Source of the DNA: a virus
Taxonomy: Duplodnaviria; Heunggongvirae; Uroviricota; Caudoviricetes
DNA: 11,452 nt
Virus record (IMG/VR): IMGVR_UViG_3300015187_000032
Reading direction: 5' to 3' (one strand)
Shown here: positions 1 through 11,452 of the stretch, one piece after another
How the letters are laid out: every line of letters starts with the position of its first letter
Position numbering within the stretch: the first letter of the stretch is position 1
Program-made: the position numbers and the translations under genes
Notes under the pieces: generated by a model
The model's input: the letters and a program-made list of their open reading frames with translations, nothing else
What the model was told of the DNA's origin: nothing
Databases searched by the model: none

Positions 1-1107
1 TCCTGCCGTCAACAGCCAGCAGGCAAAAGTATGCCGCGTATGGTACGGATTATGGCGGCGAATACCAGCACGTTTTACTGCTGCATTCCACCTTGCCCCC
101 AAACTGCTTACCGAGTAATAAGGTTTTTGTTTTCCGTTACACACCCTGGGCATGAAAACAAAATGCAGTTTTTGCTTTTCGGTTCTGCCGTACTCCCGAT
201 GATAAAAGGTGATTTCGCTTTTGCGATGATGCCCGGTCAGTTTGTATTGCTCCTTCAGTGCTTCAAGAGCAGGCTGCAGTAGTGTTACTGTCCGGATCCC
301 GGCATTTGTTTTTGGGGGACCGAACATATCAAGTATCGTCAGGTTTCTTCTGACATTCACTATTCCCTTTTCGAGATCCACATCCTCCCACGCCAGAGCT
401 GCCAGTTCCCCGTGACGAAGTCCTGAGTAAACGGCAAATTTCCACAAGTTCTGGCTCTGTCCTTTTTCACTTTCCATTAATGCATTGAATTCTGTTTTAG
501 ATAACGGATCAGGCTTTATTCTGTTTCGCTGTAATTTTTTTACTCCTTCAAATGGTTTGGTTAATATAAATCCCGACTGATACGCAAAACGCAACAGCGA
601 ACAGAGCAGGGCGATATAGTTATCAACAGTGCGCACGGTTCTTCCTTTTTTGTTGGATCTTGGATTATCCAGGTAAAGCGTTTCTCCATGCAGCAGTTCA
701 TTCCGGTAGTTTAAGATATCGCTATAACGAATATGTGATATCAGGGTACTTTCACAAATTATTATTCTGAGTGTTTTTAATTGTGATTTCGTTTTCTTCA
801 TTGTGTTTGTTGTTAACTCTGTCTCTTTAATTTTTGTCCAGATATCACAAAGCTCCCCGAACGTTTTTATGACTCTCGTTGTCACCATTTTTGCCCCAGT
901 GCTGGACTGGGGAAAACGTCTTAAATACTCAAATTCACCGGAGTTTATTTCATGAACTATCAGTGCTCTTAAATTTCCGGCCTTTTTAATATTACTGTTT
1001 GTAATCTCCCAGCCTTTTAATGTTTCCCGACATCGTTTTCCTCGAAACATGAACCAGATGCGAATGTATCTACCTCTAATCTCGACACCTGTTGGTAATT
1101 TAGACAT
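1..1107 (-). CDS. intR: Prophage tyrosine integrase, 5' part only (N-terminal 369 codons; C-terminus with catalytic Tyr lies beyond position 1)
   Basis: Minus-strand frame is open from the window edge to ATG at rc 1105-1107. N-terminus reads MSKLPTGVEIRGRYIRIWF (hand-translated). The codons nearest the window edge give ...NPYHTRHTFACWLLTAG, the His-X-X-Arg box of tyrosine recombinases. Not in the ORF track because it is edge-truncated. Upstream xis stop overlaps the start (rc 1105-1111 = TGATATG). Confidence 0.85.
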   Translation of the reverse strand, partial: MSKLPTGVEIRGRYIRIWFMFRGKRCRETLKGWEITNSNIKKAGNLRALIVHEINSGEFEYLRRFPQSSTGAKMVTTRVIKTFGELCDIWTKIKETELTTNTMKKTKSQLKTLRIIICESTLISHIRYSDILNYRNELLHGETLYLDNPRSNKKGRTVRTVDNYIALLCSLLRFAYQSGFILTKPFEGVKKLQRNRIKPDPLSKTEFNALMESEKGQSQNLWKFAVYSGLRHGELAALAWEDVDLEKGIVNVRRNLTILDMFGPPKTNAGIRTVTLLQPALEALKEQYKLTGHHRKSEITFYHREYGRTEKQKLHFVFMPRVCNGKQKPYYSVSSLGARWNAAVKRAGIRRHNPYHTRHTFACWLLTAG

Positions 1108-1108
1108 A

Positions 1109-1324
1109 TCATGAGTCTTTGATAAACTGATTTATCTTTGGATAGTTGTACCAGATAATCCCTCGTTTGCTGTCTGGCTTACCTAAAGGAGATACTCGTT
1201 TGAAGTGGAAGCCCTCCACCCAACAGTTCTGGCGGTATGCTTCAATTTGTCTGGCCCCCAGACCAGTGCGAAGCATCAGGCCGTATTCAACCATCCACTC
1301 TTCATTAAAGATTACTTGTGCCAT
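1109..1324 (-). CDS. xisR: Excisionase-like small protein (71 aa) directly upstream of int
   Basis: Track ORF 1109..1348 uses a TTG start. Internal ATG at rc 1322-1324 is preceded by GAGGTG with 5-nt spacing, giving [15 protein letters not shown]... (71 aa). Position immediately upstream of int with 1-nt gap fits an xis-int cassette. Also known as ydaQ. Confidence 0.7.
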
Positions 1325-1423
1325 CGCATCACCTCTGGCAGGCGCCAATGTTAGACTGAAATTGACGCCCGATGTTGATTATTAATAATCAGCTATGAAG
1401 TTTTAATTTGAATACAATGCAAT

Positions 1424-1612
1424 TCACGAGGACTGAAGTTTCTCGCAATTAAAATTAATCAGTTTTACTTTCTGCTCTCTGGAAACGCCTGCTTCTTTTT
1501 TACCTGAGAGCATTTTTTCACATTCTGATTTCGTTAGTTTAGATTTTGAATATCTTGTCCAGTTAGTAGGAGTGCCACCTTCCTTTTCAATAGTGGCGGT
1601 AATTTTATACAT
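1424..1612 (-). CDS. ydaC: Small prophage protein of unknown function (YdaC-like, 62 aa from this start)
   Basis: Track ORF 1424..1684. ATG at rc 1610-1612 is preceded by GGAGGTG at 6-nt spacing (rc of 1613-1630), giving MYKITATIEKEGG.... The longer 86-aa start would overlap lar by about 80 nt and lacks an SD. Start choice is inference. Confidence 0.6.
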   Translation of the reverse strand: MYKITATIEKEGGTPTNWTRYSKSKLTKSECEKMLSGKKEAGVSREQKVKLINFNCEKLQSS

Positions 1613-1799
1613 GAACACCTCCATTATTATTTCCAGTGGTTCGTTTATTCCATCTTTCGAGTGCTTCTTTTTCACTTCCACCATAACCGGTTCGGGATTC
1701 GCATCCGTTACACTTCGCTCGGTAATATGCTGAAATGGCTTTCACCGTTACTGATGGACAACCACAAAATGGACATGGTTTAACATTGTCATATCTCAT
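1605..1799 (-). CDS. ralR: Lar/RalR: restriction-alleviation protein, reported as the DNase toxin of a type I toxin-antitoxin pair; zinc-ribbon-like CxxC...CxxC
   Basis: Track ORF 1605..1811 (MRNVMRYDNVKPCPFCGCPS...AKCNGCES...). Two CxxC pairs (CPFC, CNGC) form a zinc-ribbon-like motif. I chose the second ATG (rc 1797-1799) to give 64 aa, matching my recollection of the K-12 protein; ATG at 1809-1811 is an alternative. Neither has a strong SD. Confidence 0.7.
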   Translation of the reverse strand: MRYDNVKPCPFCGCPSVTVKAISAYYRAKCNGCESRTGYGGSEKEALERWNKRTTGNNNGGVHV

Positions 1800-1854
1800 A
1801 ACATTTCTCATAAAAATATTTCAAGTTCGCGGTGCATTACACCGCCAGGCTGAA

Positions 1855-2664
1855 TTATTCCTCTGAATTATCGATTACACTGTATTCCCCGGTTAATACA
1901 GAGGAATCTGCAGGATCGATTGTCAGTGGTTCCTTTTCATCCATTGATACTGCACGCTGGATCTCAATTGATACGGGCAGATATTTGAACAGGCGACGAA
2001 TAGCCGTTTTCTTTGCCATTTCTTCCCAGTGAGTTACCCACGGCCCGTTATTACTAGCTTTACTCTGGCTGCGCACCAGCTCAATCTGTTTGCGCGTCAT
2101 AACTTCAAACTGAGTACCTCCGTCTTTCAGTCTTGCGACAGCATAGACGTGGGTAACCGGGGCATCTTCGTTTTCTCCTGGGCGGTGTATTAACTTTTCA
2201 TCAAGGCCAAATTCGAAATTAAACTCGTCACCTTCACGGACAACACGGGCTGACAGGCTGGCGATTTGACCTGAACGGCGAGCCAGATCAATCATGCCGC
2301 GATAGCCAATGATTAGCTGAACGTTTTTTTTACCGCTCTTTTCGTTTTTATTACCAAAAGGCAGTAAATATGCATGACCGAGAGCGCTACCGGGCTCAAG
2401 CCCGAGCTGTGAACACTGTACGATTGCACTGACAAAACTCATAGTGTCACAGTTTCCTAACGCCGGAACTTTACGAATTTCTGTGGTGGCGATACGGATC
2501 ATACGTTCAGCCGTCATATGGCGTGGAAGAGCTGCTGCCAGTTGCTCTTTCATTGATGGCTGGTTAATAAAACTAATCACGTCGTTATTTTTAATTGCTG
2601 CTGGTGCACGGTTTCCCTGAGTTTTTTGCAGATCGGCTTTTGCGATTGGTGGTTGCTTAGTCAT
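1855..2664 (-). CDS. recT: RecT single-strand annealing protein (269 aa)
   Basis: Track ORF 1855..2721 with start trimmed to [13 protein letters not shown]... (ATG rc 2662-2664). AAGGA lies upstream at rc 2672-2676. The start overlaps the recE stop (ATGACTAA). Sequence recognised as Rac RecT. Confidence 0.9.
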
Positions 2665-5257
2665 TTGCATATTCCTTAGCCCAGCGGGGCAGTGATAACG
2701 TCTTAATAGCTGGCCATTCATCGGTATTGAGGCAGTCAGCCAGGGTTCGCAGATTGCGGTGATATTCCAGCTGACCTGCCAGTTTTGCTTCTTCGCCCAT
2801 CATGAAAATTTCAACCGGATAACGTCCGCATTCAATAGTTGTGCTGGCAACCAGAAAAACGAAAGTTGGCTGCACTCCAAACTGTGCTTCATAACCGTCA
2901 CTGTAGAATGCATCCTGAACGTGATAGCGGTAGTCGTAATAAGCGGTTTTGAATCGTTGAATATCCGCCGTAGTTTTCACGTCCATGATCCAGTGAAATT
3001 CAGGGATAATTTTGTCCGGACGGCACCGACACAAAATTCCTGTTTCAGGATCTTCCCAGTAAATTGATGATTCAGCGTGTCCGGCGCTTTCAATAAGCCA
3101 TTGCCCCAGCGGCAAAGCCATAACGCTTTGATACATGAGTTCAATTTTCCGGCCTTCTTCCGCAGTGATAACCGTTTTTCCTGTGCTTGCGCATTCCATC
3201 AGAAACGCTTTCTCTTCTTCTTTTCCGGCGTTTGTACGGCGATTAAATTCAGGTGCTACGATAAAGCGGTTACTGAATTCTTCCGGTTCAAGTACCCGGC
3301 AGTGGAAAGCGGTTCCTAAATCGAGCGTTTTTGTCTTTGTGGTGTCCACGGGGGCATTTTTACGCCACAAATACAGTGCCGGAGTATCAGCAATGTCATC
3401 GAGCTGAGACTTACTGACACCGGGACCCGCGTGGTAATTCTCATTCGAAATTCCGTAATAAATACCTGGCTCTATGTCTTCTACGATTACGGGATCTGCG
3501 ACTTCGCCAGTTTCATCACTGCAATCGCGATGCGGATCGCTGCCAGCATTCTCATTGTGCGGATGTTCAGCGCCTTCCATTTCCTCCGGATCATTTTCCT
3601 TAGCTTCAACCTGACTCTCTTCATCGAATGTTTCCTGGTATGTTGCCTCGCCCATCACCGCACCACAGTCAGGGCAGTTATCCCCGCCAGTCTGGCCGCA
3701 GGCATTGCAGGCTATTTCCGGTTCCTGTTGCACTACTGGCTCAGGTTGATTCATATCCGGGCTGGTTTTTTCCGTTTCTGGCTGGTTCTGGTGCACAGAA
3801 TCGCGAGTCTGGATCCCCTTTACCCATTTCGGATCGTTCGGGTCGCTAATTCCGTCAACAAATTCACCACGTGATGCAGCAAGCAATTTATCGGCATCGA
3901 CAGGATTTTTTGATGGAATGTTTTTCCGGGCTTCATGGAGTTCTGCCCGCAGTTTCTGATATTTCGCATCAACAGAATTTACCTGTGACTGAGCATCCAA
4001 CGGCTGCGTGTCCTGATGATGTTCAGTTGCGTCCGGTTCCATTGTTTCAGCCTCTCCCTGTTCAACTGCCGTTGTTCCAGATGGTTGCGGTTTTTCTTCA
4101 TCATCCTGTTTTCCTTCTTCTGTTACTCGCTGCGGCATCGGGGCAGAGGAGCGACCGCAGGCAATATCCACGATTTCCGGATCAGGGTTTGCATGATCGG
4201 TTTCAGTCAGTACTTTGTTCAGATATTCAGTGACGTGCGCGGGGATGACCTCGATCCCAATTGGTGCTTCTTTTACGGACGCAACCACGATGGCGCGGGA
4301 ATAATCCAGCCCGCCAGGCATGGTGATGAATTTGTCGCGGAAAACAGAAAAGGGCGGTTTATTTTCAGCGATAATTTCCTCAATGCGTTTAGCGTGTGCC
4401 GGATGAAGGTTATAGATGTCTAGATCCATTGAACGGGCCAGTACGCCAGTGGCTACGTCGCGCGCCAGTGACGTCAGATCGTGTACGAAACCTTCGCCGC
4501 GATCGGTGAGGTTTCCGCCGCCAGCATTAGCACCGGAAGCCGTGCGAGTGATGTGTGAAACACGATTACCCTTCATCCACTCTTTTGTCAGCAGTCCTCG
4601 ATCGGTGTAGTCAGCGTTCAGGTATGCTTCGAAAAAAGCAGTTATCAGTCCCAGGTTTGAATTACCAGGATTAGGGAAAACTTTGTCAGTGTCACGAACC
4701 AGTTTGTGGAGATCGCGAATTTCCAGCGGGTCGAGCAGGCTGGTTTTGTGGGAAACAGCCAGGGCAGTAACAGCCGGTAGTTCTTCAGCCCGAGCAATGT
4801 GTAATGCCTGGAGTCCGTCGCGTGAAACGTGCGTTACCGGTTTTTCGCTGCCGTGTTGAGCAAGCCAGCGAATGGGCAGTTCCTGGCCAGAAATTGGGAG
4901 TAGCATATTCTCCTCAATCTCAGTCATGTCTTCGCCGTTGACGTTGGTATTGCCTTGATAGTGAGCGTTGTCTGGTGCTGCTCCCGGTTTTAGTTCCCAT
5001 GTCATGGAGTCTTTGCTGAGTTGATAGCGTTCACTCCAGGTAAAATCGATCTCACCTTCAGCGGGCAGGTCATTAACGACAGGAAAATTCGTGGCAACAG
5101 CTTTAAAATAGCTGCTCAGTTTTTTACCTGACTTAACGATCAGGTAGTCCAGAGTGGCACAGGTCGATTCAAAATCGTCGCTTGCCCACAGGACGACGTC
5201 AGGTTCACCGGATGATTTTTTCGCTTTCCGTAACAGGAAGAGTGGTTTTGTGCTCAT
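2657..5257 (-). CDS. recE: RecE exonuclease VIII (866 aa), 5'-3' dsDNA exonuclease partner of RecT
   Basis: Single 866-aa ORF on the minus strand. C-terminal part (...[32 protein letters not shown]...DVKTT...) is the nuclease domain. Middle is acidic and low-complexity, with a Cys4 motif (CNAC-x10-CPDC). Length and sequence fit Rac RecE. Confidence 0.9.
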
Positions 5258-5328
5258 TGTTTTTTAACCTCAACTCAGATTAAAATTCGTTTTGTTCAGT
5301 GAATGATCTTGCCGGATACACACTGTTC

Positions 5329-5353
5329 ATAGCCTGCGCCATACGCAGGCTAT
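5329..5353 (-). other. Perfect 10-bp stem / 5-nt loop hairpin 6 nt downstream of the racC stop, between racC and recE
   Basis: 5329-5338 ATAGCCTGCG pairs with 5344-5353 CGCAGGCTAT; loop is CCATA. On the minus-strand transcript it is not followed by a U-tract, so it is not a canonical intrinsic terminator. Confidence 0.3.
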
Positions 5354-5358
5354 TTCTT

Positions 5359-5634
5359 TCAGATTTCACCTTTTAATTTCATTGCAATTAGAGTTGCCAG
5401 AAATTCGGCTTTTTTTTCTGTGGGCAGATTCTTTCCGGTATGCACCAGGCACATTTTTTTGACACCTTCGTGAAGTGTTTTAACGTTGCCTGATGGACCG
5501 TCGATATCAACCACAGTGAATGGGGTTTCTTTATTTTCTGTTTTAATCACGTAGCCAATACGCTTTCCTTCCAGATTAACTTCGTGAACAATGTCATCAG
5601 TAGTTACAACAGTGGCTTCATAACTGGTAATCAT
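5359..5634 (-). CDS. racC: RacC small prophage protein (91 aa)
   Basis: Track ORF 5359..5682 trimmed to ATG at rc 5632-5634 (MITSYEATVVTTDD...), preceded by AAGGAG at 6-nt spacing (rc of 5635-5650). Confidence 0.75.
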   Translation of the reverse strand: MITSYEATVVTTDDIVHEVNLEGKRIGYVIKTENKETPFTVVDIDGPSGNVKTLHEGVKKMCLVHTGKNLPTEKKAEFLATLIAMKLKGEI

Positions 5635-5708
5635 GTTTTTCTCCTTAATTAAGGTTGAGCGAATCCCTGCCATTGCTGGCATAAATTCAGTTTCGCATAG
5701 TCAGTTAA

Positions 5709-5879
5709 TTAAAGTTCGTGTGCCATCTGGTCTTTTTCGGCACATATTTCACTACAATATTTTTTCATTTCCGTCGTTGGGATAACTCCACGCATGAAAT
5801 GAAGTGGTCTTTTAATGCTTTTGCTTTCTTTAACTTCTTTATCGCAAAGATGGTAAGCACATTTTATTTTCTTAGTCAT
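5709..5879 (-). CDS. ydaE: YdaE small Cys-rich (putative zinc-binding) protein, 56 aa; missing from the ORF track (<60 aa)
   Basis: Hand translation of the minus strand gives [56 protein letters not shown] with stop TAA (rc 5709-5711). Four Cys (C7, C12, C43, C47). The ATG overlaps the kilR stop (rc 5877-5881 = TGATG), suggesting translational coupling. Confidence 0.65.
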   Translation of the reverse strand: MTKKIKCAYHLCDKEVKESKSIKRPLHFMRGVIPTTEMKKYCSEICAEKDQMAHEL

Positions 5880-6100
5880 CACCATGACTCCGCCTTTACA
5901 GGTAAACCATCACGACCGAGGAAGACTTTAATCATGCAGTCAGTAATGCATGTTTTTGTGGTCAGGTTACGAATATAAAGTTTTCGCTTTTTAATATTGT
6001 TTGCCGAGGCAATATATGTCCGGCCGTTATGAAGAATATAATCACCAGGAGTCACACACTGACGAGGTATTTCATCAGTTCCGAAGTGATGAGCAATCAT
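5879..6100 (-). CDS. kilR: KilR: prophage Kil protein, cell-division (FtsZ) inhibitor (73 aa)
   Basis: Track ORF 5879..6118 (GTG start) trimmed to ATG at rc 6098-6100 ([14 protein letters not shown]...), with GGAG 6 nt upstream. Recognised as Rac KilR. Confidence 0.75.
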
Positions 6101-6261
6101 AATTATCTCCATTTTCACAAATGAACTTTGTTGATGCGGTGCCTGGTGCCTCCAGGTGACGTTAACCAGTTAACAATTAACGCCGGATAATCCACCCATA
6201 ACACTGATGCTTTTAACTGTTCCGCGTGCGCTTAGCCGCATTCACCGCATCACAAAATTCA

Positions 6262-6312
6262 CTTTAAAAAGGGCGGACATCAGCCGAACTTCAAGAAAAA
6301 AACTGATGCCGC
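6262..6312 (-). terminator. Candidate intrinsic terminator on the minus strand, upstream of kilR in the leftward transcription direction
   Basis: GC-rich stem 6271-6282 (GGCGGACATCAG) pairs with 6302-6312 (CTGATGCCGCC), 11 bp with one bulge and a 19-nt A-rich loop. On the minus strand it is followed directly by CTTTTTAAAG (rc of 6261-6270). Confidence 0.3.
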
Positions 6313-6531
6313 CAGGACTACACACAGCAATGTCGTTATTTACAACCGGAGGCGCACTCCCACCATTTAAATTTAACAGACAAGACCGACTCTTTATGGA
6401 TATCGGAAATGCGCCTTCGTGTTGTGCCCGGTTTTATTTCACCACCTCCGGGCTTCGGTGGTCTCGGCTATACCCCTACAGCGAGAGCTTGTGTTAACAT
6501 TTCAATACCCTTACAGTTGAGAGTTATTGAT

Positions 6532-7020
6532 ATGTTGGATGTATTTACTCCATTGTTGAAACTTTTTGCTAACGAGCCACTCGAAAGACTTATGTATACG
6601 ATTATCATTTTTGGTCTCACTCTCTGGCTGATACCGAAAGAGTTTACTGTCGCATTCAATGCTTATACTGAAATACCTTGGCTCTTTCAGATTATCGTTT
6701 TTGCCTTTTCTTTCGTGGTCGCCATTTCCTTCTCAAGATTGCGAGCACATATTCAAAAGCATTATTCATTACTACCAGAGCAACGAGTATTGCTTCGTTT
6801 ATCTGAGAAAGAAATCGCTGTATTTAAAGATTTCCTTAAAACAGGAAATCTTATTATCACTTCTCCTTGTCGTAACCCGGTTATGAAAAAATTAGAACGG
6901 AAGGGCATCATTCAACATCAGAGTGATAGCGCAAACTGTTCTTATTATCTCGTCACCGAAAAATACTCCCATTTTATGAAGTTATTCTGGAACAGCAGGA
7001 GTAGACGTTTTAATCGTTAG
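6532..7020 (+). CDS. sieB: SieB superinfection-exclusion protein (162 aa), membrane protein
   Basis: Track ORF 6409..7020 trimmed to ATG 6532 (MLDVFTPLLKLFANEPLERLMYTIIIFGLTLWLIPKEF...). Two hydrophobic segments are predicted. Encoded opposite to the surrounding leftward operon. The stop overlaps the ydaF stop on the other strand. Confidence 0.8.
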   Translation: MLDVFTPLLKLFANEPLERLMYTIIIFGLTLWLIPKEFTVAFNAYTEIPWLFQIIVFAFSFVVAISFSRLRAHIQKHYSLLPEQRVLLRLSEKEIAVFKDFLKTGNLIITSPCRNPVMKKLERKGIIQHQSDSANCSYYLVTEKYSHFMKLFWNSRSRRFNR

Positions 7021-7172
7021 CTTACTGTGTGCTTCTCCAACCATCGGCGCGCACCAGTTTCTGTTTTAAATGTTTTGCTTTTGGTATACGTCATAGCAGT
7101 GAACGTTCCATCTTGGTTGGGGAACACGCCGCACACAATGGATTCGTTATTGCCGAGGTCGATTTTTTGCAT
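7017..7172 (-). CDS. ydaF: YdaF small prophage protein (51 aa); missing from the ORF track
   Basis: Hand translation gives MQKIDLGNNESIVCGVFPNQDGTFTAMTYTKSKTFKTETGARRWLEKHTVS. ATG at rc 7170-7172 is preceded by GAGGTG, which contains the ydaG stop codon. Stop TAA at rc 7017-7019. Confidence 0.55.
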   Translation of the reverse strand: MQKIDLGNNESIVCGVFPNQDGTFTAMTYTKSKTFKTETGARRWLEKHTVS

Positions 7173-7182
7173 TTTTCGCACC

Positions 7183-7317
7183 TCACATCTTGTTGTTGCG
7201 GATAGAGGCTTCTGCCTGCCAGAGATCCCAGTCGTTGCTGCGTAAAGCCTGCACAGCCTGGTTGTAAGTGATGCCGCAACAATCCATCAAATACTGAACT
7301 ACTTCGTAATGCACCAT
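7183..7317 (-). CDS. ydaG: YdaG small prophage protein (44 aa); missing from the ORF track
   Basis: Hand translation gives MVHYEVVQYLMDCCGITYNQAVQALRSNDWDLWQAEASIRNNKM. ATG at rc 7315-7317 is preceded by GGGGAGA at about 6-nt spacing. First gene downstream of the leftward early promoter. Confidence 0.6.
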   Translation of the reverse strand: MVHYEVVQYLMDCCGITYNQAVQALRSNDWDLWQAEASIRNNKM

Positions 7318-7486
7318 CTTATCTCTCCCCTTAACGCCGGGTGGCGGAACTAACTGCTGCACTGCAAAATTTGAATCCCGCCGTCATGTTCATACGCCTC
7401 GGGCTGGCTACTTAACCCCTGACCACTGCCTGGTAACTCGAAGTATTGCCCGGCGTTCTGTGGGGCGGGGTGGGTGGTATGCTGGA

Positions 7487-7515
7487 ACTATAGGTAATGC
7501 CTAATTGATTGTCAA
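7487..7515 (-). promoter_or_regulatory. pL-like leftward early promoter: TTGACA -17 bp- TATAGT on the minus strand
   Basis: rc of 7510-7515 is TTGACA; rc of 7487-7492 is TATAGT; the spacer is exactly 17 bp. Oriented toward ydaG-ydaF-kilR-recET. Flanked and overlapped by the operator palindromes. Confidence 0.45.
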
Positions 7516-7528
7516 TAGGCTATGCCTA
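7491..7528. promoter_or_regulatory. Left operator cluster (OL-like): two 13-bp TAGGC-N3-GCCTA palindromes 25 bp apart
   Basis: 7491-7503 TAGGTAATGCCTA (imperfect) and 7516-7528 TAGGCTATGCCTA (perfect). The second abuts the -35; the first overlaps the -10. The same 13-mer family recurs three times on the other side of racR. Confidence 0.5.
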
Positions 7529-7589
7529 ATATTTTGAGCGTAACCTAATAGGTGATGGCGACAGCAGAAAGTGATGGGGGGGTTAAATA

Positions 7590-7611
7590 ACGGAATCCAG
7601 GAGTTTTCCGT
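7590..7611 (-). terminator. Weak candidate terminator hairpin downstream of racR
   Basis: ACGGAA (7590-7595) pairs with TTCCGT (7606-7611), loop 10 nt. On the minus strand it is followed by UUAUUUAA then a C7 run. Sits about 15 nt past the racR stop (TAA, rc 7626-7628). Confidence 0.2.
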
Positions 7612-7625
7612 CAGACCATATAAGT

Positions 7626-8102
7626 TTAAGTTCCAGTTTTTGTGATGTTCTGGCTTTTCCGTTCAGATTCTAGAGCTTTCAGATACTTACCCACTTTCAT
7701 TTCCATCGCTGCTATGTAGGCGCGAACATCGTGGTCAACCCAATCTGGTTCTGTAGCATTTCCAGATAACAGGAAAGCTACAATCGCTCTTATTTCATCA
7801 GAGGCTGCTTGATAAAGGTTGTTTATATCTAAAAGTTCACTTTTTGTATCTGAATTGGTGGGGGTTGGTATGGGGTATTCGTTAAGCCCCCAATGCTCTG
7901 GACCAACAACATCAGAAAAGAAACGCCATAATTCTGGAAGTTTATCTTTACTTATAGAGCCTTTCTTAATCCAGTCATAAATTGATGGTGGTTGGACTTT
8001 GAAGTGGCGTGCGACCTCCGCCTTTGATTTGACGGATCCCGATGCGATTTTTTTGTTAATGGCCTGCTCTATCGCTCGGCCTAAGTCTTTACCACTAAGC
8101 AT
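7626..8102 (-). CDS. racR: RacR prophage repressor (158 aa), HTH DNA-binding protein
   Basis: Track ORF 7626..8102. Divergent from ydaS across a 123-bp operator-rich intergenic region. Sequence recognised as Rac RacR. Confidence 0.85.
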   Translation of the reverse strand: MLSGKDLGRAIEQAINKKIASGSVKSKAEVARHFKVQPPSIYDWIKKGSISKDKLPELWRFFSDVVGPEHWGLNEYPIPTPTNSDTKSELLDINNLYQAASDEIRAIVAFLLSGNATEPDWVDHDVRAYIAAMEMKVGKYLKALESERKSQNITKTGT

Positions 8103-8131
8103 TGCTTAATATTCTCCTATGCGCATTGCAT

Positions 8132-8195
8132 TAGGCAATCCCTACCTTTATCGTATTAGGCATAGCCTATTGACATTTGCGTTAGGCGTCGCCTA
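8132..8195. promoter_or_regulatory. Right operator cluster (OR-like): three 13-bp TAGGC-N3-GCCTA palindromes at 25-26-bp centre spacing, between racR and ydaS
   Basis: 8132-8144 TAGGCAATCCCTA (imperfect), 8157-8169 TAGGCATAGCCTA (perfect), 8183-8195 TAGGCGTCGCCTA (perfect). The 21-bp block 8155-8175 is the exact reverse complement of 7510-7530. Confidence 0.5.
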
Positions 8196-8199
8196 ATAT
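8170..8199 (+). promoter_or_regulatory. pR-like rightward early promoter: TTGACA -18 bp- TAATAT
   Basis: TTGACA at 8170-8175; best -10 candidate TAATAT at 8194-8199, overlapping the third operator. Followed by GGAG (8214-8217) and the ydaS ATG at 8226. Confidence 0.4.
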
Positions 8200-8225
8200 T
8201 TCTGTGTGTTTTTGGAGTTCATTCG

Positions 8226-8522
8226 ATGAAAAAAGAGAACTATTCATTCAAGCAAGCTTGTGCTGTTGTCGGTGGGCAATCAGCAATGGCTAGGCTTTTA
8301 GGTGTATCACCTCCAAGCGTAAATCAATGGATCAAAGGGGTACGTCAATTGCCTGCCGAGAGATGTCCAGCAATTGAACGTGCAACAAGAGGTGAGGTTC
8401 TGTGCGAAGAACTTCGTCCAGATATTGACTGGTCATATTTACGACGTTCGGCATGTTGTTCGCAGAATATGTCAGTGAAGCAACTAAATGACAGTAACAA
8501 ATCCTCATTTGATCATACCTGA
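8226..8522 (+). CDS. ydaS: YdaS: Cro-like HTH early protein (98 aa), toxic when derepressed
   Basis: Track ORF 8226..8522, first gene of the rightward operon. ...SAMARLLGVSPPSVNQWIKG... is an HTH-like segment. Recognised as Rac YdaS. Confidence 0.85.
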   Translation: MKKENYSFKQACAVVGGQSAMARLLGVSPPSVNQWIKGVRQLPAERCPAIERATRGEVLCEELRPDIDWSYLRRSACCSQNMSVKQLNDSNKSSFDHT

Positions 8523-8544
8523 AACATCAAGAGGCAAATGATTC

Positions 8545-8967
8545 ATGAAAATCAAGCATGAGCACATCGAATCAGTGTTGTTTGCCCTGGCAGCCGAAAA
8601 AGGGCAGGCATGGGTAGCCAATGCAATTACTGAAGAATATCTGCGCCAGGGGGGCGGCGAATTGCCCCTAGTTCCAGGCAAGGACTGGAACAATCAGCAG
8701 AATATCTATCACCGTTGGTTGAAAGGTGAAACGAAAACGCAAAGAGAAAAAATTCAGAAGCTGATCCCAGCAATTCTGGCAATCCTTCCGCGCGAGCTGC
8801 GTCACCGACTCTGCATCTTCGATACCCTGGAACGCCGTGCATTACTGGCGGCGCAGGAAGCGTTAAGTACGGCAATTGATGCGCATGATGATGCAGTCCA
8901 GGCCGTTTACCGGAAAGCGCATTTCAGCGGCGGCGGGTCTTCCGACGATTCTGTCATTGTTCATTAA
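8545..8967 (+). CDS. ydaT: YdaT: CII-like / toxin-like early protein (140 aa)
   Basis: Track ORF 8545..8967; SD AAGAGG upstream of the ATG. Recognised as Rac YdaT. Confidence 0.85.
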   Translation: MKIKHEHIESVLFALAAEKGQAWVANAITEEYLRQGGGELPLVPGKDWNNQQNIYHRWLKGETKTQREKIQKLIPAILAILPRELRHRLCIFDTLERRALLAAQEALSTAIDAHDDAVQAVYRKAHFSGGGSSDDSVIVH

Positions 8968-8979
8968 GCAAAAGTTTCC

Positions 8980-9837
8980 ATGCTGTTTGTGCTTATTCTA
9001 AGCAACCGGGCAGCATCATACGGGGCAATTATGGCCGCATTACCATACATGCAACTGTACATAGCTGATTACCTGGCTGACACCATGCATTTGTCAGCAG
9101 AGGAGCATGGTGCGTATTTGTTGCTGATGTTCAATTACTGGCAAACAGGAAAGCCAATACCTAAAAACAGGCTGGCAAAAATTGCCCGTCTGACTAACGA
9201 GCGATGGGCTGGTGTTGAACCATCCTTGCGGGAGTTTTTTTGCGATAACGGCGAGGAATGGGTGCATCTTCGGATTGAGGAAGATCTGGCATCAGTCAGG
9301 GAAAAATTAACCAAAAAATCAGCCGCAGGAAAAGCATCTGTTCAGGCTAGAAGAAGCAGAAAGGAAGCAGATGTTCAAACAAAACAAGAGAGAAATTTAA
9401 CAGGTGTTCAAACAGATGTTGAAGTGGTGTTTGAACATGATGTCAACACAAAGGCAACTAATAAAGATACAGATAAAGATCTAAAAACAGATCCCCCCCT
9501 AAATCCCCCCCGGGGGAATCGAGGTGTCAAAAAGTTTGACCCTCTGGATATTGCTTTGCCGAACTGGATTTCTGTCTCGCTTTGGCGTGAGTGGGTTGAA
9601 TTTCGCCAGGCATTGCGTAAACCGATTCGAACGGAGCAGGGCGCTAACGGGGCGATACGGGAGCTGGAAAAATTCCGCCAGCAGGGTTTTTCACCTGAGC
9701 AGGTGATTCGACACAGCATCGCCAACGAATACAAGGGCTTGTTCGCGCCGAAAGGTGTTCGACCTGAGACGTTACTCCGACAGGTTAACACCGTTTCGTT
9801 ACCGGACAGTGCGATCCCGCCAGGCTTCAGGGGGTAA
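8980..9837 (+). CDS. ydaU: YdaU: replication-initiator-like protein (DUF1376-type; lambda O position)
   Basis: Track ORF 8980..9837 (285 aa). No SD before the ATG at 8980. An alternative start at 9031 (MAALPYMQLYIADYLADT...) follows a GGGG motif and may be the true start. Central linker region contains iteron-like repeats. Confidence 0.75.
   Translation: MLFVLILSNRAASYGAIMAALPYMQLYIADYLADTMHLSAEEHGAYLLLMFNYWQTGKPIPKNRLAKIARLTNERWAGVEPSLREFFCDNGEEWVHLRIEEDLASVREKLTKKSAAGKASVQARRSRKEADVQTKQERNLTGVQTDVEVVFEHDVNTKATNKDTDKDLKTDPPLNPPRGNRGVKKFDPLDIALPNWISVSLWREWVEFRQALRKPIRTEQGANGAIRELEKFRQQGFSPEQVIRHSIANEYKGLFAPKGVRPETLLRQVNTVSLPDSAIPPGFRG
9368..9520. repeat. Candidate replication-origin repeats inside ydaU: three 10-bp TGTTCAAACA copies followed by an A-rich tract and a C7/C7/G5 block
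   Basis: TGTTCAAACA at 9372-9381 and 9405-9414 (direct) and 9428-9437 (inverted). A-rich stretch 9451-9491. CCCCCCC at 9493-9499 and 9505-9511, then GGGGG at 9512-9516. Layout resembles the lambda ori inside the O gene. Confidence 0.3.
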
Positions 9838-9843
9838 CTGACC

Positions 9844-10590
9844 ATGAAAAATATTGCGACAGGCGGCGTTCTTGAACGTATCCGCAGACTGGCTCCGTCA
9901 CATGTAACCGCGCCATTCAAGACGGTGGCGGAGTGGCGTGAGTGGCAACTTTCCGAAGGCCAGAAACGTTGTGAGGAGATCAACCGTCAGAATCGTCAGT
10001 TGCGGGTGGAAAAAATTCTGAATCGCTCTGGCATCCAGCCATTGCACCGCAAATGCTCGTTTTCGAATTACCAGGTGCAGAACGACGGTCAGCGATACGC
10101 GTTGAGCCAGGCGAAATTCATCGCCGATGAACTGATGGTCGGGTGTACAAATTTTGCGTTCAGTGGAAAACCTGGTACCGGAAAAAACCATCTGGCGGCG
10201 GCTATCGGGAATCGCCTGCTGAAAGACGGTCAGACAGTGATTGTGGTTACCGTGGCTGATGTTATGAGCGCCCTGCACGCCAGCTATGACGACGGGCAGT
10301 CAGGCGAAAAATTTTTGCGGGAACTGTGCGAAGTTGATCTGCTGGTTCTTGATGAAATTGGTATTCAGCGCGAGACGAAAAACGAGCAGGTGGTACTGCA
10401 CCAGATTGTTGATCGCCGGACAGCGTCGATGCGCGGCGTGGGAATGCTGACAAACCTGAACTATGAGGCCATGAAAACATTGCTCGGCGCGCGGATTATG
10501 GATCGCATGACCATGAACGGCGGACGCTGGGTGAATTTTAACTGGGAGAGCTGGCGTCCGAATGTCGTCCAGCCAGGAATTGCGAAGTAA
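9844..10590 (+). CDS. ydaV: YdaV: DnaC-like AAA+ helicase loader (248 aa)
   Basis: Track ORF 9844..10590. Walker [16 protein letters not shown] and Walker [10 protein letters not shown] are present. IstB/DnaC-like protein at the lambda P position. Confidence 0.85.
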
Positions 10591-10612
10591 TTTTTACCGG
10601 GAGAAAAATTTA

Positions 10613-11380
10613 ATGGAGACTGTTTTTGACGCACTGAAAGCAATGGGAATAGCCACATCCATAGAACTTGCTGCGCGACTTGATATCAGTCGTGAAGAAG
10701 TGCTGAACGAACTATGGGAACTGAAAAAGGCTGGTTTTGTTGATAAAAGCGCGTACACCTGGCGTGTGGCTGATAACAACGTTCAGCAGGAACAGCCAGC
10801 GCAGGCAGAACTGCCGGAAGAAACCACCACAGCAACAGTAGCGAAAATCTCAGAGTGCGATTTAACCGCGACGATTGAACAACGCGGACCACAAACGGCT
10901 GATGAGCTGGCTACATTGTTTGGTACCACATCACGCAAAGTGGCTTCAACGCTGGCAATGGCAATCAGCAAAGGTCGTCTGATTCGCGTAAATCAGGGCG
11001 GTAAATTTCGTTACTGCATACCGGGCGATAATTTACCAGCAGAGCCGAAAGCAGCATCGGTAGCGGAAACTGATGGTAAGGCCTTTCCTCAGACCGCAGG
11101 TGTCGCGTTACCAGTACAGGAGGCTGCAACACAGGAAGAAATTAAAACAGATACTATGGGGGACATTGTGCAGTCACTACCATCGTTCACTGAAACGCGA
11201 GCCAATGACCTGATTTTACCATCGCTGCATATGGCAAACCGCGAACTGCGCCGGGCGAAAAGTCATGTCCAGAAGTGGGAGCGAGTCTGCGCCGCGCTGC
11301 GTGAGCTGAACAAGCACCAGGATATTGTTCGACAGATTACGGATTCTTTTCCGAGGCAACACGGCGGAAAGAATCCGTAA
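10613..11380 (+). CDS. ydaW: YdaW-like protein with two tandem winged-helix-like segments (255 aa from this start)
   Basis: Track ORF 10562..11380 trimmed to ATG 10613 ([12 protein letters not shown]...), with GGGAGA 8 nt upstream. The longer start overlaps ydaV by 29 nt. Two similar HTH-like segments: [31 protein letters not shown] and [31 protein letters not shown]. The 3' end lies inside a large palindrome. Symbol assigned by position in the Rac map. Confidence 0.6.
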
Positions 11381-11416
11381 TCTGTCGAACAATAACCTGT
11401 AGCTTGTTCAGCTCAC
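11301..11416. repeat. Large imperfect palindrome (about 55-bp arms) spanning the ydaW stop codon
   Basis: Inner 13-bp perfect stem 11337-11349 / 11368-11380, plus 3 more bp after a 1-nt bulge, loop about 11 nt. Outer arms 11301-11336 and 11381-11416 match 33/36 as reverse complements. The minus strand reads a near-identical C-terminal peptide ending at TAA (rc 11337-11339). Confidence 0.6.
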
Positions 11417-11452
11417 GCCCCGAGTCTGCACCACGCTGCGCTCGCTGGACAA

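What the first reader, a model, noticed from the sequence alone, without database searches (positions are those of the whole stretch)
7626..8967. RacR-YdaS-YdaT: repressor guarding toxic early genes
The cI-like repressor is divergently arranged with a Cro-like (ydaS) and CII-like (ydaT) gene pair. From established knowledge of K-12 Rac, racR cannot be deleted because derepressed ydaS/ydaT are toxic. The module therefore behaves like an addiction system that stabilises the cryptic prophage. The sequence shows the architecture; the toxicity is not visible in sequence.
Basis: partly seen in the sequence, partly recalled or inferred. Interest (0 to 1): 0.4.

Follow-up and report, generated by a model that had tools for sequence, protein, structure and literature searches.

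The report
Rac prophage immunity switch (RacR/YdaS/YdaT)
This is the well-studied on/off switch of the Rac-type lambdoid prophage of E. coli: a repressor (RacR) silences the phage's early genes, so it is an ordinary, already published phage immunity region and not a special addiction system.

Summary
racR (7626-8102, minus strand) faces ydaS (8226-8522) and ydaT (8545-8967), and all three proteins are 100% identical to E. coli K-12 RacR, YdaS and YdaT. The system is already known. At least eight papers (2017-2026) show that RacR represses PydaST, that racR cannot be deleted alone, and that YdaS and YdaT work like Cro and CII.

The module is a lambdoid immunity switch, not an addiction module. 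Published work shows that the whole prophage can be deleted, and that RacR depletion induces xisR/intR, the prophage excises and cured cells survive.

The finding's coordinates miss part of the switch:
- A second operator pair and a near-consensus leftward promoter sit downstream of racR (7487-7528). This is an OL/PL analogue aimed at ydaG, ydaF and kilR.
- The published YdaT-box (8538-8555) and the reverse promoter inside ydaS (8316-8348) are both present.

Side observations:
- RacR's DNA-binding head is shared with S24-peptidase repressors that use the same operators, but RacR's tail is helical and not a peptidase.
- ydaT is exchanged independently of racR-ydaS.
- A second perfect YdaT-box lies upstream of xisR (1375-1391).

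Interest is low.

The parts
7626..8102 (-). racR: the prophage repressor, a functional CI analogue. It has an N-terminal five-helix HTH head (about residues 1-73) and a C-terminal three-helix tail, with no S24 peptidase domain.
   Evidence: ORF. 100% identical to K-12 RacR. Annotated racR in RefSeq. Only a weak HTH_17 Pfam hit and no Peptidase_S24. The AF2 model is all-alpha with pLDDT 80. The head is shared with S24 repressors.
8226..8522 (+). ydaS: Cro-family HTH regulator and first gene of the rightward (PR-like) operon.
   Evidence: Pfam YdaS_toxin 2.6e-31, P22_Cro 3.4e-9, HTH_3. Sequence hits to solved Cro proteins, 3bd1 at 3.9e-10. Identical to K-12 YdaS.
8545..8967 (+). ydaT: a functional CII analogue (YdaT family, POU-like HTH, tetrameric). 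It is a transcription activator and carries the published DNA-binding residues H56 and R57.
   Evidence: Pfam PF06254 1.8e-11. PDB hits 3c4r and 8bt1, the CP-933P YdaT. Identical to K-12 YdaT. Function from PMC11879457 and PMC9986795.
8096..8195 (.). OR-type operator array. There are four TAGGC-N3-GCCTA-type palindromes: 8096-8108 (degenerate TAAGC-ATT-GCTTA, overlapping the racR ATG), 8132-8144, 8157-8169 and 8183-8195.
   Evidence: 5 sites with at most 1 mismatch in the whole window, 0.2 expected, all flanking racR. Half-sites are invariant across the ~87%-identity clade. RacR footprints and the operator consensus were published for K-12 (PMC9638921).
8170..8199 (+). PR analogue (PydaST): -35 TTGACA at 8170-8175, 18-nt spacer, -10 TAATAT at 8194-8199. 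It is flanked and overlapped by two operators.
   Evidence: The hexamers are invariant in the comparative alignment. Shown experimentally to be a very strong promoter in K-12 (PMC11879457).
7487..7528 (-). OL/PL analogue, outside the finding's coordinates. It has two operators (7491-7503 and 7516-7528, 25 bp apart) overlapping a leftward promoter: -35 TTGACA at 7515-7510 and -10 TATAGT at 7492-7487, matching 11 of 12 consensus positions. It points at ydaG, ydaF and kilR.
   Evidence: The 22-nt stretch 7510-7531 is a perfect inverted copy of 8154-8175 (I1). Of the half-site, hexamer and CCTAATAGG-element positions, 38 of 39 are invariant, against 91 of 147 other intergenic positions (Fisher p = 2e-6). 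The same arrangement occurs beside an S24-tailed relative. RacR binding here is inferred and was not tested.
7543..7551 (.). Conserved CCTAATAGG element: back-to-back operator half-sites next to the OL pair. It may be a third, atypical RacR site.
   Evidence: 9 of 9 positions are invariant across all 8 aligned copies, while the flanks vary. Its function is unknown.
8538..8555 (+). YdaT-box ATGATTCATGAAAATCAA, overlapping the ydaT start codon. This is the binding site through which YdaT activates the reverse promoter.
   Evidence: Exact match. Footprint and mutagenesis in K-12 (PMC11879457). The TGATT-N6-AATCAA core of the box is kept at the ydaS/ydaT joint in the clade that has a 31%-identical ydaT allele.
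8316..8348 (-). PracR4, a PRE analogue. It is a reverse promoter inside ydaS (-35 TTGACG, 21-nt spacer, -10 TACGCT) lying 190 bp from the YdaT-box. YdaT activates it and so raises racR transcription.
   Evidence: One search finds a single match with none expected. It was described and tested in K-12 (PMC11879457).
8980..10590 (+). ydaU (8980-9837, DUF1376, in the replication-O position) and ydaV (9844-10590, IstB/DnaC-like). They are downstream genes of the same rightward operon.
   Evidence: Pfam, annotation, and derepression of ydaU-W on racR silencing.
5879..7317 (-). Proximal leftward-arm genes downstream of the putative PL: ydaG (7183-7317), ydaF (7017-7172) and kilR (5879-6100, an FtsZ inhibitor). 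sieB (6532-7020) lies on the opposite strand.
   Evidence: Annotation transferred from T-HYM1. Pfam DUF1391 and SieB. No minus-strand intrinsic terminator is predicted between PL and kilR. These genes rise 40-70-fold when RacR falls.
1375..1391 (-). Candidate second YdaT-box, (C)TGATT-ATTAAT-AATCAA, about 51 nt upstream of the xisR start codon (xisR is 1109-1324, minus strand). It may be a P_I analogue.
   Evidence: Perfect match to TGATT-N6-AATCAA. Also present in K-12 and two other Rac-type loci. Not mentioned in the YdaT paper. Binding and function are untested.

Best explanation
The region is the immunity (lysis/lysogeny) switch of a Rac-type lambdoid prophage.

How it works:
- RacR dimers bind TAGGC-N3-GCCTA palindromes on both sides of its own gene.
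- On the right (OR), four sites overlap a near-consensus promoter, PydaST (the PR analogue), and racR's own promoters.
- On the left (OL), two sites overlap a near-consensus leftward promoter (the PL analogue).
- While RacR is present, both early arms are silent. The rightward arm is ydaS (Cro), ydaT (CII analogue) and ydaU/ydaV (replication). The leftward arm runs ydaG, ydaF, kilR ... recET ... xisR/intR.
- YdaT bound at the YdaT-box over its own start codon activates a reverse promoter inside ydaS. That feeds racR transcription, as lambda CII does at PRE.
- A Rho-dependent terminator inside racR (published) stops read-through from racR's promoters into kilR.

When RacR is lost, the whole early programme starts. 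YdaT misregulates host genes (rcsA and the Rcs regulon), giving filamentation and death. YdaS promotes excision. xis/int rise and the prophage leaves.

racR is therefore 'essential' for the same reason that any prophage repressor is, and the module does not penalise loss of the prophage.

Shown here: gene identity, operators, promoters, YdaT-box, conservation pattern and modular distribution.
Shown in the literature for K-12, whose proteins are identical: repression, toxicity, the PRE-like circuit and excision.
Inferred: RacR binding at OL/PL, and behaviour in this particular host.
For: Gene identity and order.

Operators and promoters. The window holds only 5 TAGGC-N3-GCCTA sites with at most 1 mismatch, against 0.2 expected, and all of them flank racR.

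Comparative constraint: half-sites and promoter hexamers are invariant at 49 of 50 positions (OR) and 38 of 39 (OL). Other intergenic positions are invariant at 35 of 66 and 91 of 147 (p = 8e-9 and 2e-6).

YdaT-box and reverse promoter are present.

Protein families: YdaS matches solved Cro proteins and YdaT matches the solved YdaT.

Distribution across 5,426 genomes: racR in 1086, ydaS in 1087-1089, this ydaT allele in 1457, and all three together in only 552. Other Rac-like prophages carry a different repressor/Cro cassette in the same slot. This is lambdoid mosaicism.

An S24-tailed relative has the same operators on both sides of its repressor operon.

Literature:
- RacR footprints and operator consensus: PMC9638921.
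- PydaST strength, YdaT-box and PracR4: PMC11879457.
- Essentiality and rescue by deleting ydaS/ydaT: PMC5700373, PMC5700377.
- Derepression of both arms, excision and recovery: PMC6765115, PMC11014345 and the 2026 preprint.
- The Cro/CII argument: PMC5917428, PMC8630535.
- Rho terminator in racR: PMC4150792.
Against: - RacR is not a lambda CI homologue throughout. It has no S24 domain and no significant structural match.
- The K-12 papers report departures from lambda. [quoted passage not shown]
- RacR binding at OL/PL has not been shown. I found no mention of it in the RacR papers.
- The racR-ydaS intergenic region here differs from K-12 at 7 of 123 positions, so quantitative behaviour could differ.
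- The window's host is unknown.
Confidence: 0.9

Rival explanations
1. RacR/YdaS/YdaT is a toxin-antitoxin-like addiction module whose job is to stabilise the cryptic prophage in the chromosome by killing cells that lose it.
For: - racR cannot be deleted alone in K-12, and the ydaS ydaT double deletion removes the toxicity (PMC5700373, PMC5700377).
- Pfam still names the families 'toxin'.
- racR and ydaS co-occur almost perfectly, in 1086 versus 1087 genomes.
Against: - The whole rac prophage can be deleted. RacR depletion triggers excision and cured cells recover, which is the opposite of post-segregational killing.
- The 'toxins' are not pre-made. They are transcriptionally silent, so there is nothing to outlast the antidote after loss of the element.
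- YdaS is a Cro-family HTH protein and YdaT is a DNA-binding activator, not enzymes or poisons.
- The genes are transcribed divergently, and neutralisation is not protein-protein.
- ydaT is exchanged independently of racR-ydaS.
- YdaT toxicity is absent in some hosts.
Confidence: 0.05
2. The lethality of RacR loss is mainly caused by other derepressed prophage genes and not by YdaS and YdaT proteins themselves. Candidates are kilR on the leftward arm and abortive replication from ydaU/ydaV. Deleting ydaS/ydaT would then rescue cells only by polarity or by removing the promoter.
For: - Both arms are derepressed, with kilR up more than 70-fold.
- A strong PL-like promoter with operators faces kilR, and no intrinsic terminator intervenes.
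- The smallest viable racR deletion also removed the intergenic region and ydaS, and therefore PydaST.
- Failure of Rho termination into kil is lethal.
Against: - A kilR deletion does not permit racR deletion and does not cure filamentation.
- Ectopic YdaT alone is toxic, even in a strain lacking rac.
- YdaT binds and activates host rcsA directly (abstract).
- Single ydaS or ydaT deletions still show toxicity, while the double deletion does not.
Confidence: 0.1
3. The module is a domesticated host regulatory device. It would be kept because YdaT control of the Rcs regulon, or RacR-controlled excision, benefits E. coli under some stress, and not because it still serves a phage.
For: - The proteins are perfectly conserved between this strain and K-12, while the flanking replication genes differ.
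- YdaT has a host target and is also repressed by host OxyR.
- The authors suggest a host benefit.
Against: - The same cassette sits in a nearly complete ~49-kb prophage in the closest genome and behaves as a swappable lambdoid module.
- Only 20% of complete E. coli genomes carry racR.
- No benefit has been demonstrated.
Confidence: 0.15

Closest known systems
E. coli K-12 Rac prophage racR-ydaS-ydaT locus (b1356-b1358)
   Same: - RacR, YdaS and YdaT are 100% identical in amino-acid sequence.
- Gene order and spacing are the same.
- The operator half-sites, PydaST hexamers, YdaT-box and PracR4 are the same.
- The neighbours are the same, from intR to ydaV.
   Different: - There are 7 substitutions in the 123-bp racR-ydaS intergenic region (5.7%, against 0.3-0.9% in the three genes). 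All fall in linkers or the N3 spacer.
- YdaU differs at 5 residues and YdaV at 6.
- The closest genome carries a ~49-kb, nearly complete prophage, whereas K-12 has a 23-kb remnant.
Bacteriophage lambda immunity region (cI, cro, cII, OR/OL, PR/PL/PRM/PRE)
   Same: - A repressor arranged divergently from a cro-cII-replication operon.
- Multiple palindromic operators overlapping divergent promoters.
- A second operator/promoter set on the far side of the repressor gene, facing the kil, recombination and xis/int arm.
- An activator-dependent reverse promoter that feeds repressor synthesis.
- A sieB-type exclusion gene nearby.
   Different: - RacR has no S24 autopeptidase domain, so RecA-stimulated self-cleavage is not expected.
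- YdaT is a POU-like HTH tetramer unrelated to lambda CII, with no Phage_CII hit (PMC9986795).
- The operators are 13-15 bp with an N3 spacer, and there are four on the right side.
- YdaS reportedly does not repress racR, and YdaT has a host target.
CP-933P (E. coli O157:H7) paaR2 / ydaS / ydaT immunity region
   Same: - The same CI/Cro/CII-analogue logic, with PR, PRM, PL and PRE analogues shown experimentally (PMC8630535).
- The YdaT-box consensus TTGATT-N6-AATCAA cross-reacts with Rac YdaT.
   Different: - PaaR2 is a different repressor with different operators (GTTTAGTAA-type palindromes) and is followed by the paaA2-parE2 toxin-antitoxin pair.
- Its YdaS and YdaT are only about 26% and 31% identical to the Rac proteins.
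- CP-933P YdaT is reported to be non-toxic.
S24-peptidase phage repressors of Pectobacterium and Brenneria that share the RacR head (P0103, P0105)
   Same: - The N-terminal ~73 residues are 70-82% identical to RacR.
- The operator motif TAGGC-N3-GCCTA is the same. Three sites lie in the divergent intergenic region, one of them over the repressor's ATG, and a 25-bp-spaced pair lies downstream.
- The partner gene is a divergent YdaS/Cro-family gene.
   Different: - The C-terminal half is a canonical Peptidase_S24 domain, 235 aa in total, against RacR's three-helix tail.
- The gene after cro is a Phage_CP76 (CII-type) gene, not ydaT.

Membership tests
Lambdoid prophage immunity switch (CI/Cro/CII-type) | A repressor gene transcribed divergently from a cro-like gene, then a cII-like gene, then replication genes | tested here: met
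   ORF map. Pfam: YdaS/P22_Cro, YdaT, DUF1376, IstB/DnaC-like. RefSeq annotation.
Lambdoid prophage immunity switch (CI/Cro/CII-type) | Several similar palindromic operators in the divergent intergenic region, overlapping the promoters | tested here: met
   Four TAGGC-N3-GCCTA-type sites at 8096-8195 overlap PydaST. Half-sites are invariant across diverged copies. RacR footprints were published for K-12 (PMC9638921).
Lambdoid prophage immunity switch (CI/Cro/CII-type) | A second operator/promoter set (OL/PL) on the other side of the repressor gene, controlling the leftward early arm | tested here: met
   Sequence level only. Two operators and an 11-of-12 promoter lie at 7487-7528, there is a 22-nt perfect inverted copy of the OR module, and the elements are conserved. 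Leftward genes are derepressed on RacR loss in K-12. RacR binding at this site cannot be tested with these tools.
Lambdoid prophage immunity switch (CI/Cro/CII-type) | A CII-type activator site with an activator-dependent reverse promoter that feeds repressor synthesis (PRE) | tested here: met
   The YdaT-box is exact at 8538-8555 and PracR4 lies at 8316-8348. Activation was shown in K-12 (PMC11879457).
Lambda CI / LexA-type repressor (HTH head plus Peptidase_S24 autocleavage tail) | A C-terminal S24 peptidase domain with a Ser/Lys dyad that allows RecA-stimulated self-cleavage | tested here: not met
   No PF00717 hit for RacR at E <= 0.01. The AF2 model has no beta-strand, and the tail is three helices. 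Relatives with the same head do carry PF00717. RacR is therefore a functional CI analogue with a related head, not a full family member.
Lambda CI / LexA-type repressor (HTH head plus Peptidase_S24 autocleavage tail) | An N-terminal lambda-repressor-like (XRE-type) helix-turn-helix DNA-binding domain | tested here: inconclusive
   There is a five-helix head. Foldseek's top hits are lambda cI-NTD, HipB, ClgR, C-proteins and Cro, but all at E > 0.1. Pfam gives only a sub-threshold HTH_17 hit. Homology of the head to bona fide S24 repressors is strong.
Cro family (Pfam P22_Cro PF14549 / YdaS PF15943) | A small HTH protein matching the Cro/YdaS profiles and encoded first after PR | tested here: met
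   PF15943 at 107.7 bits (cut-off 30) and PF14549 at 36.8 bits (cut-off 30.2). Solved Cro proteins hit at 3.9e-10.
YdaT family (PF06254; functional CII equivalents) | A match to the YdaT profile and the solved YdaT structure, the DNA-binding residues H56/R57, and a cognate TGATT-N6-AATCAA box at the gene start | tested here: met
   PF06254 at 44.7 bits (cut-off 21). PDB 8bt1 and 3c4r. H56 and R57 are present by direct reading of the translation. The box is exact.
Lambda CII family (Pfam Phage_CII) | Sequence homology to lambda CII | tested here: not met
   YdaT has no Phage_CII hit in Pfam at E <= 0.01. The literature calls it a functional equivalent with a different fold (PMC9986795).
Type II toxin-antitoxin / addiction module | Toxin and antitoxin are co-transcribed, and the antitoxin neutralises the toxin by protein-protein binding | tested here: not met
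   racR is on the opposite strand with its own promoters. Neutralisation is by transcriptional repression (PMC5700377).
Type II toxin-antitoxin / addiction module | The toxin has a poison or enzyme fold that acts on a cellular target | tested here: not met
   YdaS is a Cro-family HTH protein and YdaT is a DNA-binding HTH tetramer. Its toxicity runs through transcriptional activation of host rcsA.
Type II toxin-antitoxin / addiction module | Post-segregational killing: loss of the whole locus or element kills or arrests the cell | not testable with these tools
   The literature says no. A strain lacking rac is viable (PMC5700373), and excision rescues RacR-depleted cells (PMC11014345 and the 2026 preprint).

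The most novel reading that the evidence does not exclude
The Rac-type switch may have three parts that I did not find described in the RacR/YdaT papers I read:
1. An OL/PL operator-promoter pair about 640 bp from OR. It shares a 22-nt perfect inverted module with OR and could allow RacR-mediated OL-OR looping and direct repression of the kilR-recET-xis/int arm.
2. A second perfect YdaT-box about 51 nt upstream of xisR. It could act as a P_I-like, YdaT-activated integration promoter.
3. RacR may be a 'tail-swapped', non-cleavable derivative of an S24 repressor lineage that recognises the same operators. Rac-type prophages would then be SOS-blind, yet homoimmune with SOS-inducible relatives.
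Probability: 0.4. Interest if true: 0.3.

Novelty: already known. Interest (0 to 1): 0.15.

Why it matters
It matters little as a discovery.

The check is still useful for three reasons:
- It corrects the label. The Pfam and RefSeq names 'toxin YdaS/YdaT' and the addiction reading mislead; this is a phage immunity switch.
- It shows that the functional unit extends beyond the stated coordinates, to an OL/PL analogue, a PRE analogue and possibly a P_I analogue.
- It shows that racR-ydaS is the immunity cassette proper, while ydaT is an exchangeable neighbour.

The tail-swap relationship between RacR and S24 repressors that use the same operators is a small, testable lead on how SOS-independent prophage repressors arise.

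Tried and rejected
- **Phage database hit as proof of viability.** ON470595 'vB_EcoS-683R6' carries the module at 98.4% identity. I rejected it as evidence because the record includes host genes (abgAB, ttcA), so it is a prophage region cut from an assembly.
- **Foldseek of the RacR model against the PDB.** No significant hit, best E = 0.16. I use it only to say the weak hits are all XRE/lambda-type HTH domains.
- **PDB sequence search for RacR.** Nothing at E <= 1.
- **Conservation test of the xisR-proximal YdaT-box.** The region is at least 97.5% identical in essentially all full-length hits among 1,929 genomes, so conservation says nothing.
- **Search for PracR4 with a normal 16-18-nt spacer.** No match. 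The published hexamers are present with a 21-nt spacer.
- **'Terminator-like' hits at 8181-8197 and 7516-7528.** I rejected these as terminators. They are the operator palindromes followed by T-rich sequence.
- **Literature search for sbcA + racR + recE.** Nothing in the library, so the older genetics of leftward-arm derepression could not be consulted.
- **Exact source genome.** It is not in the collection. The best match stops at 11348, so I cannot say whether the prophage carrying this window is cryptic or complete.
- **kilR as the real killer.** Considered and mostly rejected on published kilR-deletion data.
Full report
**Observation**

The window is the early region of a Rac-type lambdoid prophage of E. 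coli. It is 99.98% identical to strain T-HYM1 over positions 1-11348 and 98.1% identical to K-12 MG1655 Rac over 1-11062. The three ORFs named in the finding are exactly where stated: racR 7626-8102 (minus strand), ydaS 8226-8522 and ydaT 8545-8967. Their products have no amino-acid differences from K-12 RacR, YdaS and YdaT, and RefSeq annotates the same genes in the best-matching genomes. Pfam places YdaS in YdaS_toxin/P22_Cro and YdaT in YdaT_toxin. RacR gets only a sub-threshold HTH hit.

**What the proteins are**

- YdaS is a genuine Cro-family protein. It matches solved Cro structures by sequence (3bd1, E = 3.9e-10; weaker hits to P22 Cro).
- YdaT matches the solved YdaT of prophage CP-933P (8bt1) and 3c4r. 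It has no similarity to lambda CII. The literature describes it as a POU-like HTH tetramer that works like CII (PMC9986795).
- RacR has no solved relative by sequence. An AlphaFold model built from 35 homologues (pLDDT 80) is entirely helical: a five-helix head (residues 3-70), a disordered linker (79-88) and a three-helix tail (86-152). Foldseek finds nothing significant, and its weak top hits are all lambda-cI-NTD/XRE-type HTH domains. RacR therefore lacks the S24 autopeptidase tail of lambda CI and LexA.
- RacR's first ~73 residues are 70-82% identical to the heads of 227-256-aa repressors from Pectobacterium and Brenneria that do carry Peptidase_S24. One of these sits divergently from a YdaS-family cro gene and is surrounded by the same operator motif: three sites in the intergenic region and a 25-bp-spaced pair downstream.
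- RacR is thus 'cI-like' in function and in its head, with a different tail that is presumably not cleavable.

**Regulatory anatomy**

The motif TAGGC-N3-GCCTA (at most one mismatch) occurs five times in the 11.4-kb window, against 0.2 expected. All five sites flank racR.

On the right:
- Sites at 8132-8144, 8157-8169 and 8183-8195, plus a degenerate site over the racR ATG (8096-8108), surround a promoter with a perfect -35 (TTGACA, 8170-8175), an 18-nt spacer and a TAATAT -10 (8194-8199).
- These correspond to the RacR operators and PydaST mapped by footprinting and reporters in K-12 (PMC9638921, PMC11879457).

On the left, outside the finding's coordinates:
- Two more sites (7491-7503 and 7516-7528) overlap a leftward promoter that matches 11 of 12 consensus positions (-35 at 7515-7510, -10 at 7492-7487).
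- The 22 nt at 7510-7531 are a perfect inverted copy of 8154-8175, that is, operator plus -35.

I aligned the window, K-12 and six other copies, including a clade only ~87% identical. Half-sites and promoter hexamers are invariant at 49 of 50 (right) and 38 of 39 (left) positions. Other intergenic positions are invariant at 35 of 66 and 91 of 147 (Fisher p = 8e-9 and 2e-6).

The seven differences from K-12 in the racR-ydaS intergenic region all fall in linkers or the N3 spacer.

I read the left set as the OL/PL analogue. It faces ydaG, ydaF and kilR, with no predicted intrinsic terminator on that strand. Published RNA-seq shows those genes, and recET and xisR/intR beyond them, rising 40-100-fold when RacR falls. 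I found no mention of this operator pair in the RacR papers. A PL analogue has been shown for the related CP-933P switch. RacR binding here is inferred.

**The CII-like loop**

The published YdaT-box ATGATTCATGAAAATCAA is present exactly at 8538-8555, over the ydaT start codon. The published reverse promoter inside ydaS (TTGACG, then 21 nt, then TACGCT) is at 8316-8348 on the minus strand, 190 bp away. In K-12, YdaT bound at the box activates this promoter up to 29-fold and raises racR expression (PMC11879457). This is the PRE logic of lambda. A Rho-dependent terminator inside racR also keeps read-through from reaching kilR (PMC4150792).

**How it works, and the addiction claim**

The best-supported reading is an ordinary lambdoid immunity switch. 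RacR holds both early arms off, and its loss starts the early programme.

In K-12:
- racR cannot be deleted alone.
- Deleting ydaS and ydaT together, or racR with the intergenic region and ydaS, restores viability.
- YdaT alone is toxic even without the prophage, through host targets such as rcsA, though not in every host.
- YdaS promotes excision.

The addiction interpretation fails on its defining property:
- The entire prophage can be deleted.
- RacR depletion induces xisR/intR about 100-fold. The prophage then excises, and cured cells recover and take over.
- Nothing toxic is pre-made, so nothing outlasts the antidote after loss of the element.
- What is protected is the racR gene against inactivation. 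The prophage is not protected against loss. Jobling made this point in 2018.

**Modularity**

Among 5,426 complete E. coli genomes:
- racR is present in 1086.
- ydaS is present in 1087-1089.
- The OL-racR-OR block is present in 1086.
- This ydaT allele is present in 1457.
- The full racR-ydaS-ydaT arrangement is present in only 552.

In the O157-type clade RacR is 92% and YdaS 85% identical to the window's proteins, but YdaT is only 31% identical. The core of the YdaT-box is kept at the joint. Conversely, an O157:H7 Rac-like prophage has this ydaT allele (92.7%) behind a different repressor/Cro pair. The immunity cassette proper is therefore OL-racR-OR-ydaS, and ydaT is an exchangeable neighbour. 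This is classic lambdoid mosaicism and is not what a co-adapted three-gene toxin module would show.

**Context of this copy**

The closest genome carries a ~49-kb prophage with terminase, portal, capsid, tail, holin and lysozyme genes. Its tape-measure gene is annotated as frameshifted and two genes are partial. 'Cryptic' in the K-12 sense is therefore not established for the window's host. Derepression there might go further than in K-12. The one 'phage' record that carries the module is a prophage cut-out with host flanks and proves nothing about viability.

**Side leads**

A second perfect YdaT-box-type palindrome, (C)TGATT-ATTAAT-AATCAA, lies at 1375-1391, about 51 nt upstream of the xisR ATG. 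It is also present in K-12 and other Rac-type loci. The YdaT paper does not mention xisR or an integrase. It could be a P_I analogue. The region is too conserved to test by comparison.

**Verdict**

The system is already known in detail, so interest is low. The modest additions here are the OL/PL analogue, the head-sharing with S24 repressors, the independent exchange of ydaT, and the xisR-proximal box.

Noticed in passing
window 1375-1391 (minus strand); also L002 4504-4520, L001 13976-13992, L003 14409-14425: A second perfect YdaT-box-type palindrome, (C)TGATT-ATTAAT-AATCAA, lies about 51 nt upstream of the xisR start codon. It may be the analogue of lambda's CII-activated int promoter P_I. 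The YdaT regulon paper does not mention it.
   Followed up: partly
window 10980-10996: A third, near-perfect YdaT-box-like palindrome, TGATTCGCGTAAATCAG (one mismatch on either strand), lies inside the DUF1627 (ydaW-like) gene. Its significance is unknown.
   Followed up: no
RacR residues 1-73 (window 7884-8102); L011 2435-2507 and 3973-4010: RacR's DNA-binding head is 70-82% identical to the heads of Peptidase_S24 repressors from Pectobacterium and Brenneria. Their loci use the same TAGGC-N3-GCCTA operators on both sides of the repressor operon. RacR looks like a tail-swapped, non-peptidase variant of that lineage.
   Followed up: partly
window 8523-8555 (ydaS/ydaT joint); L005 2284-3016; L010 1751-2923: There is a mosaic breakpoint between ydaS and ydaT. 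An O157-type clade has RacR 92% and YdaS 85% identical but YdaT only 31% identical. Other Rac-like prophages pair this ydaT allele with a different repressor/Cro cassette.
   Followed up: yes
window 8103-8225: The racR-ydaS intergenic region differs from K-12 at 7 of 123 positions (5.7%), against 0.3-0.9% in racR, ydaS and ydaT. All the changes lie in linkers or the operator N3 spacer, and several are shared with other clades, which suggests recombination or relaxed constraint between operators.
   Followed up: partly
window 7543-7551: A CCTAATAGG element (back-to-back operator half-sites) next to the OL pair is invariant in all eight aligned copies while its flanks vary. It may be an atypical RacR site.
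   Followed up: no
window 1428-1606 (+): The RalA antitoxin sRNA (Rfam RF02694, 222.7 bits) lies antisense to the ralR toxin region. This is a bona fide type I toxin-antitoxin pair in the same prophage, unlike racR/ydaST.
   Followed up: no
window 11349-11452: The last 104 nt of the window do not align with the otherwise 99.98%-identical T-HYM1 genome. This is a mosaic boundary at the 3' end of the DUF1627 gene, and the exact source genome is not in the collection.
   Followed up: no
L001 24632-26790 (T-HYM1, just right of the window); L009 22605-25836: In the closest genome the Rac-like prophage carries an AAA-ATPase plus DUF4435 gene pair. From my own knowledge this resembles the PARIS anti-phage system. 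It also carries a Hok/Gef gene, and its tape-measure gene is annotated as frameshifted.
   Followed up: no
E. coli genome collection (no window coordinates): ydaS is found at >=80% coverage in 1087 genomes and racR in 1086. At least one genome may therefore carry ydaS without racR, a natural test of racR dispensability. I could not identify it because the tools do not return full hit lists.
   Followed up: no
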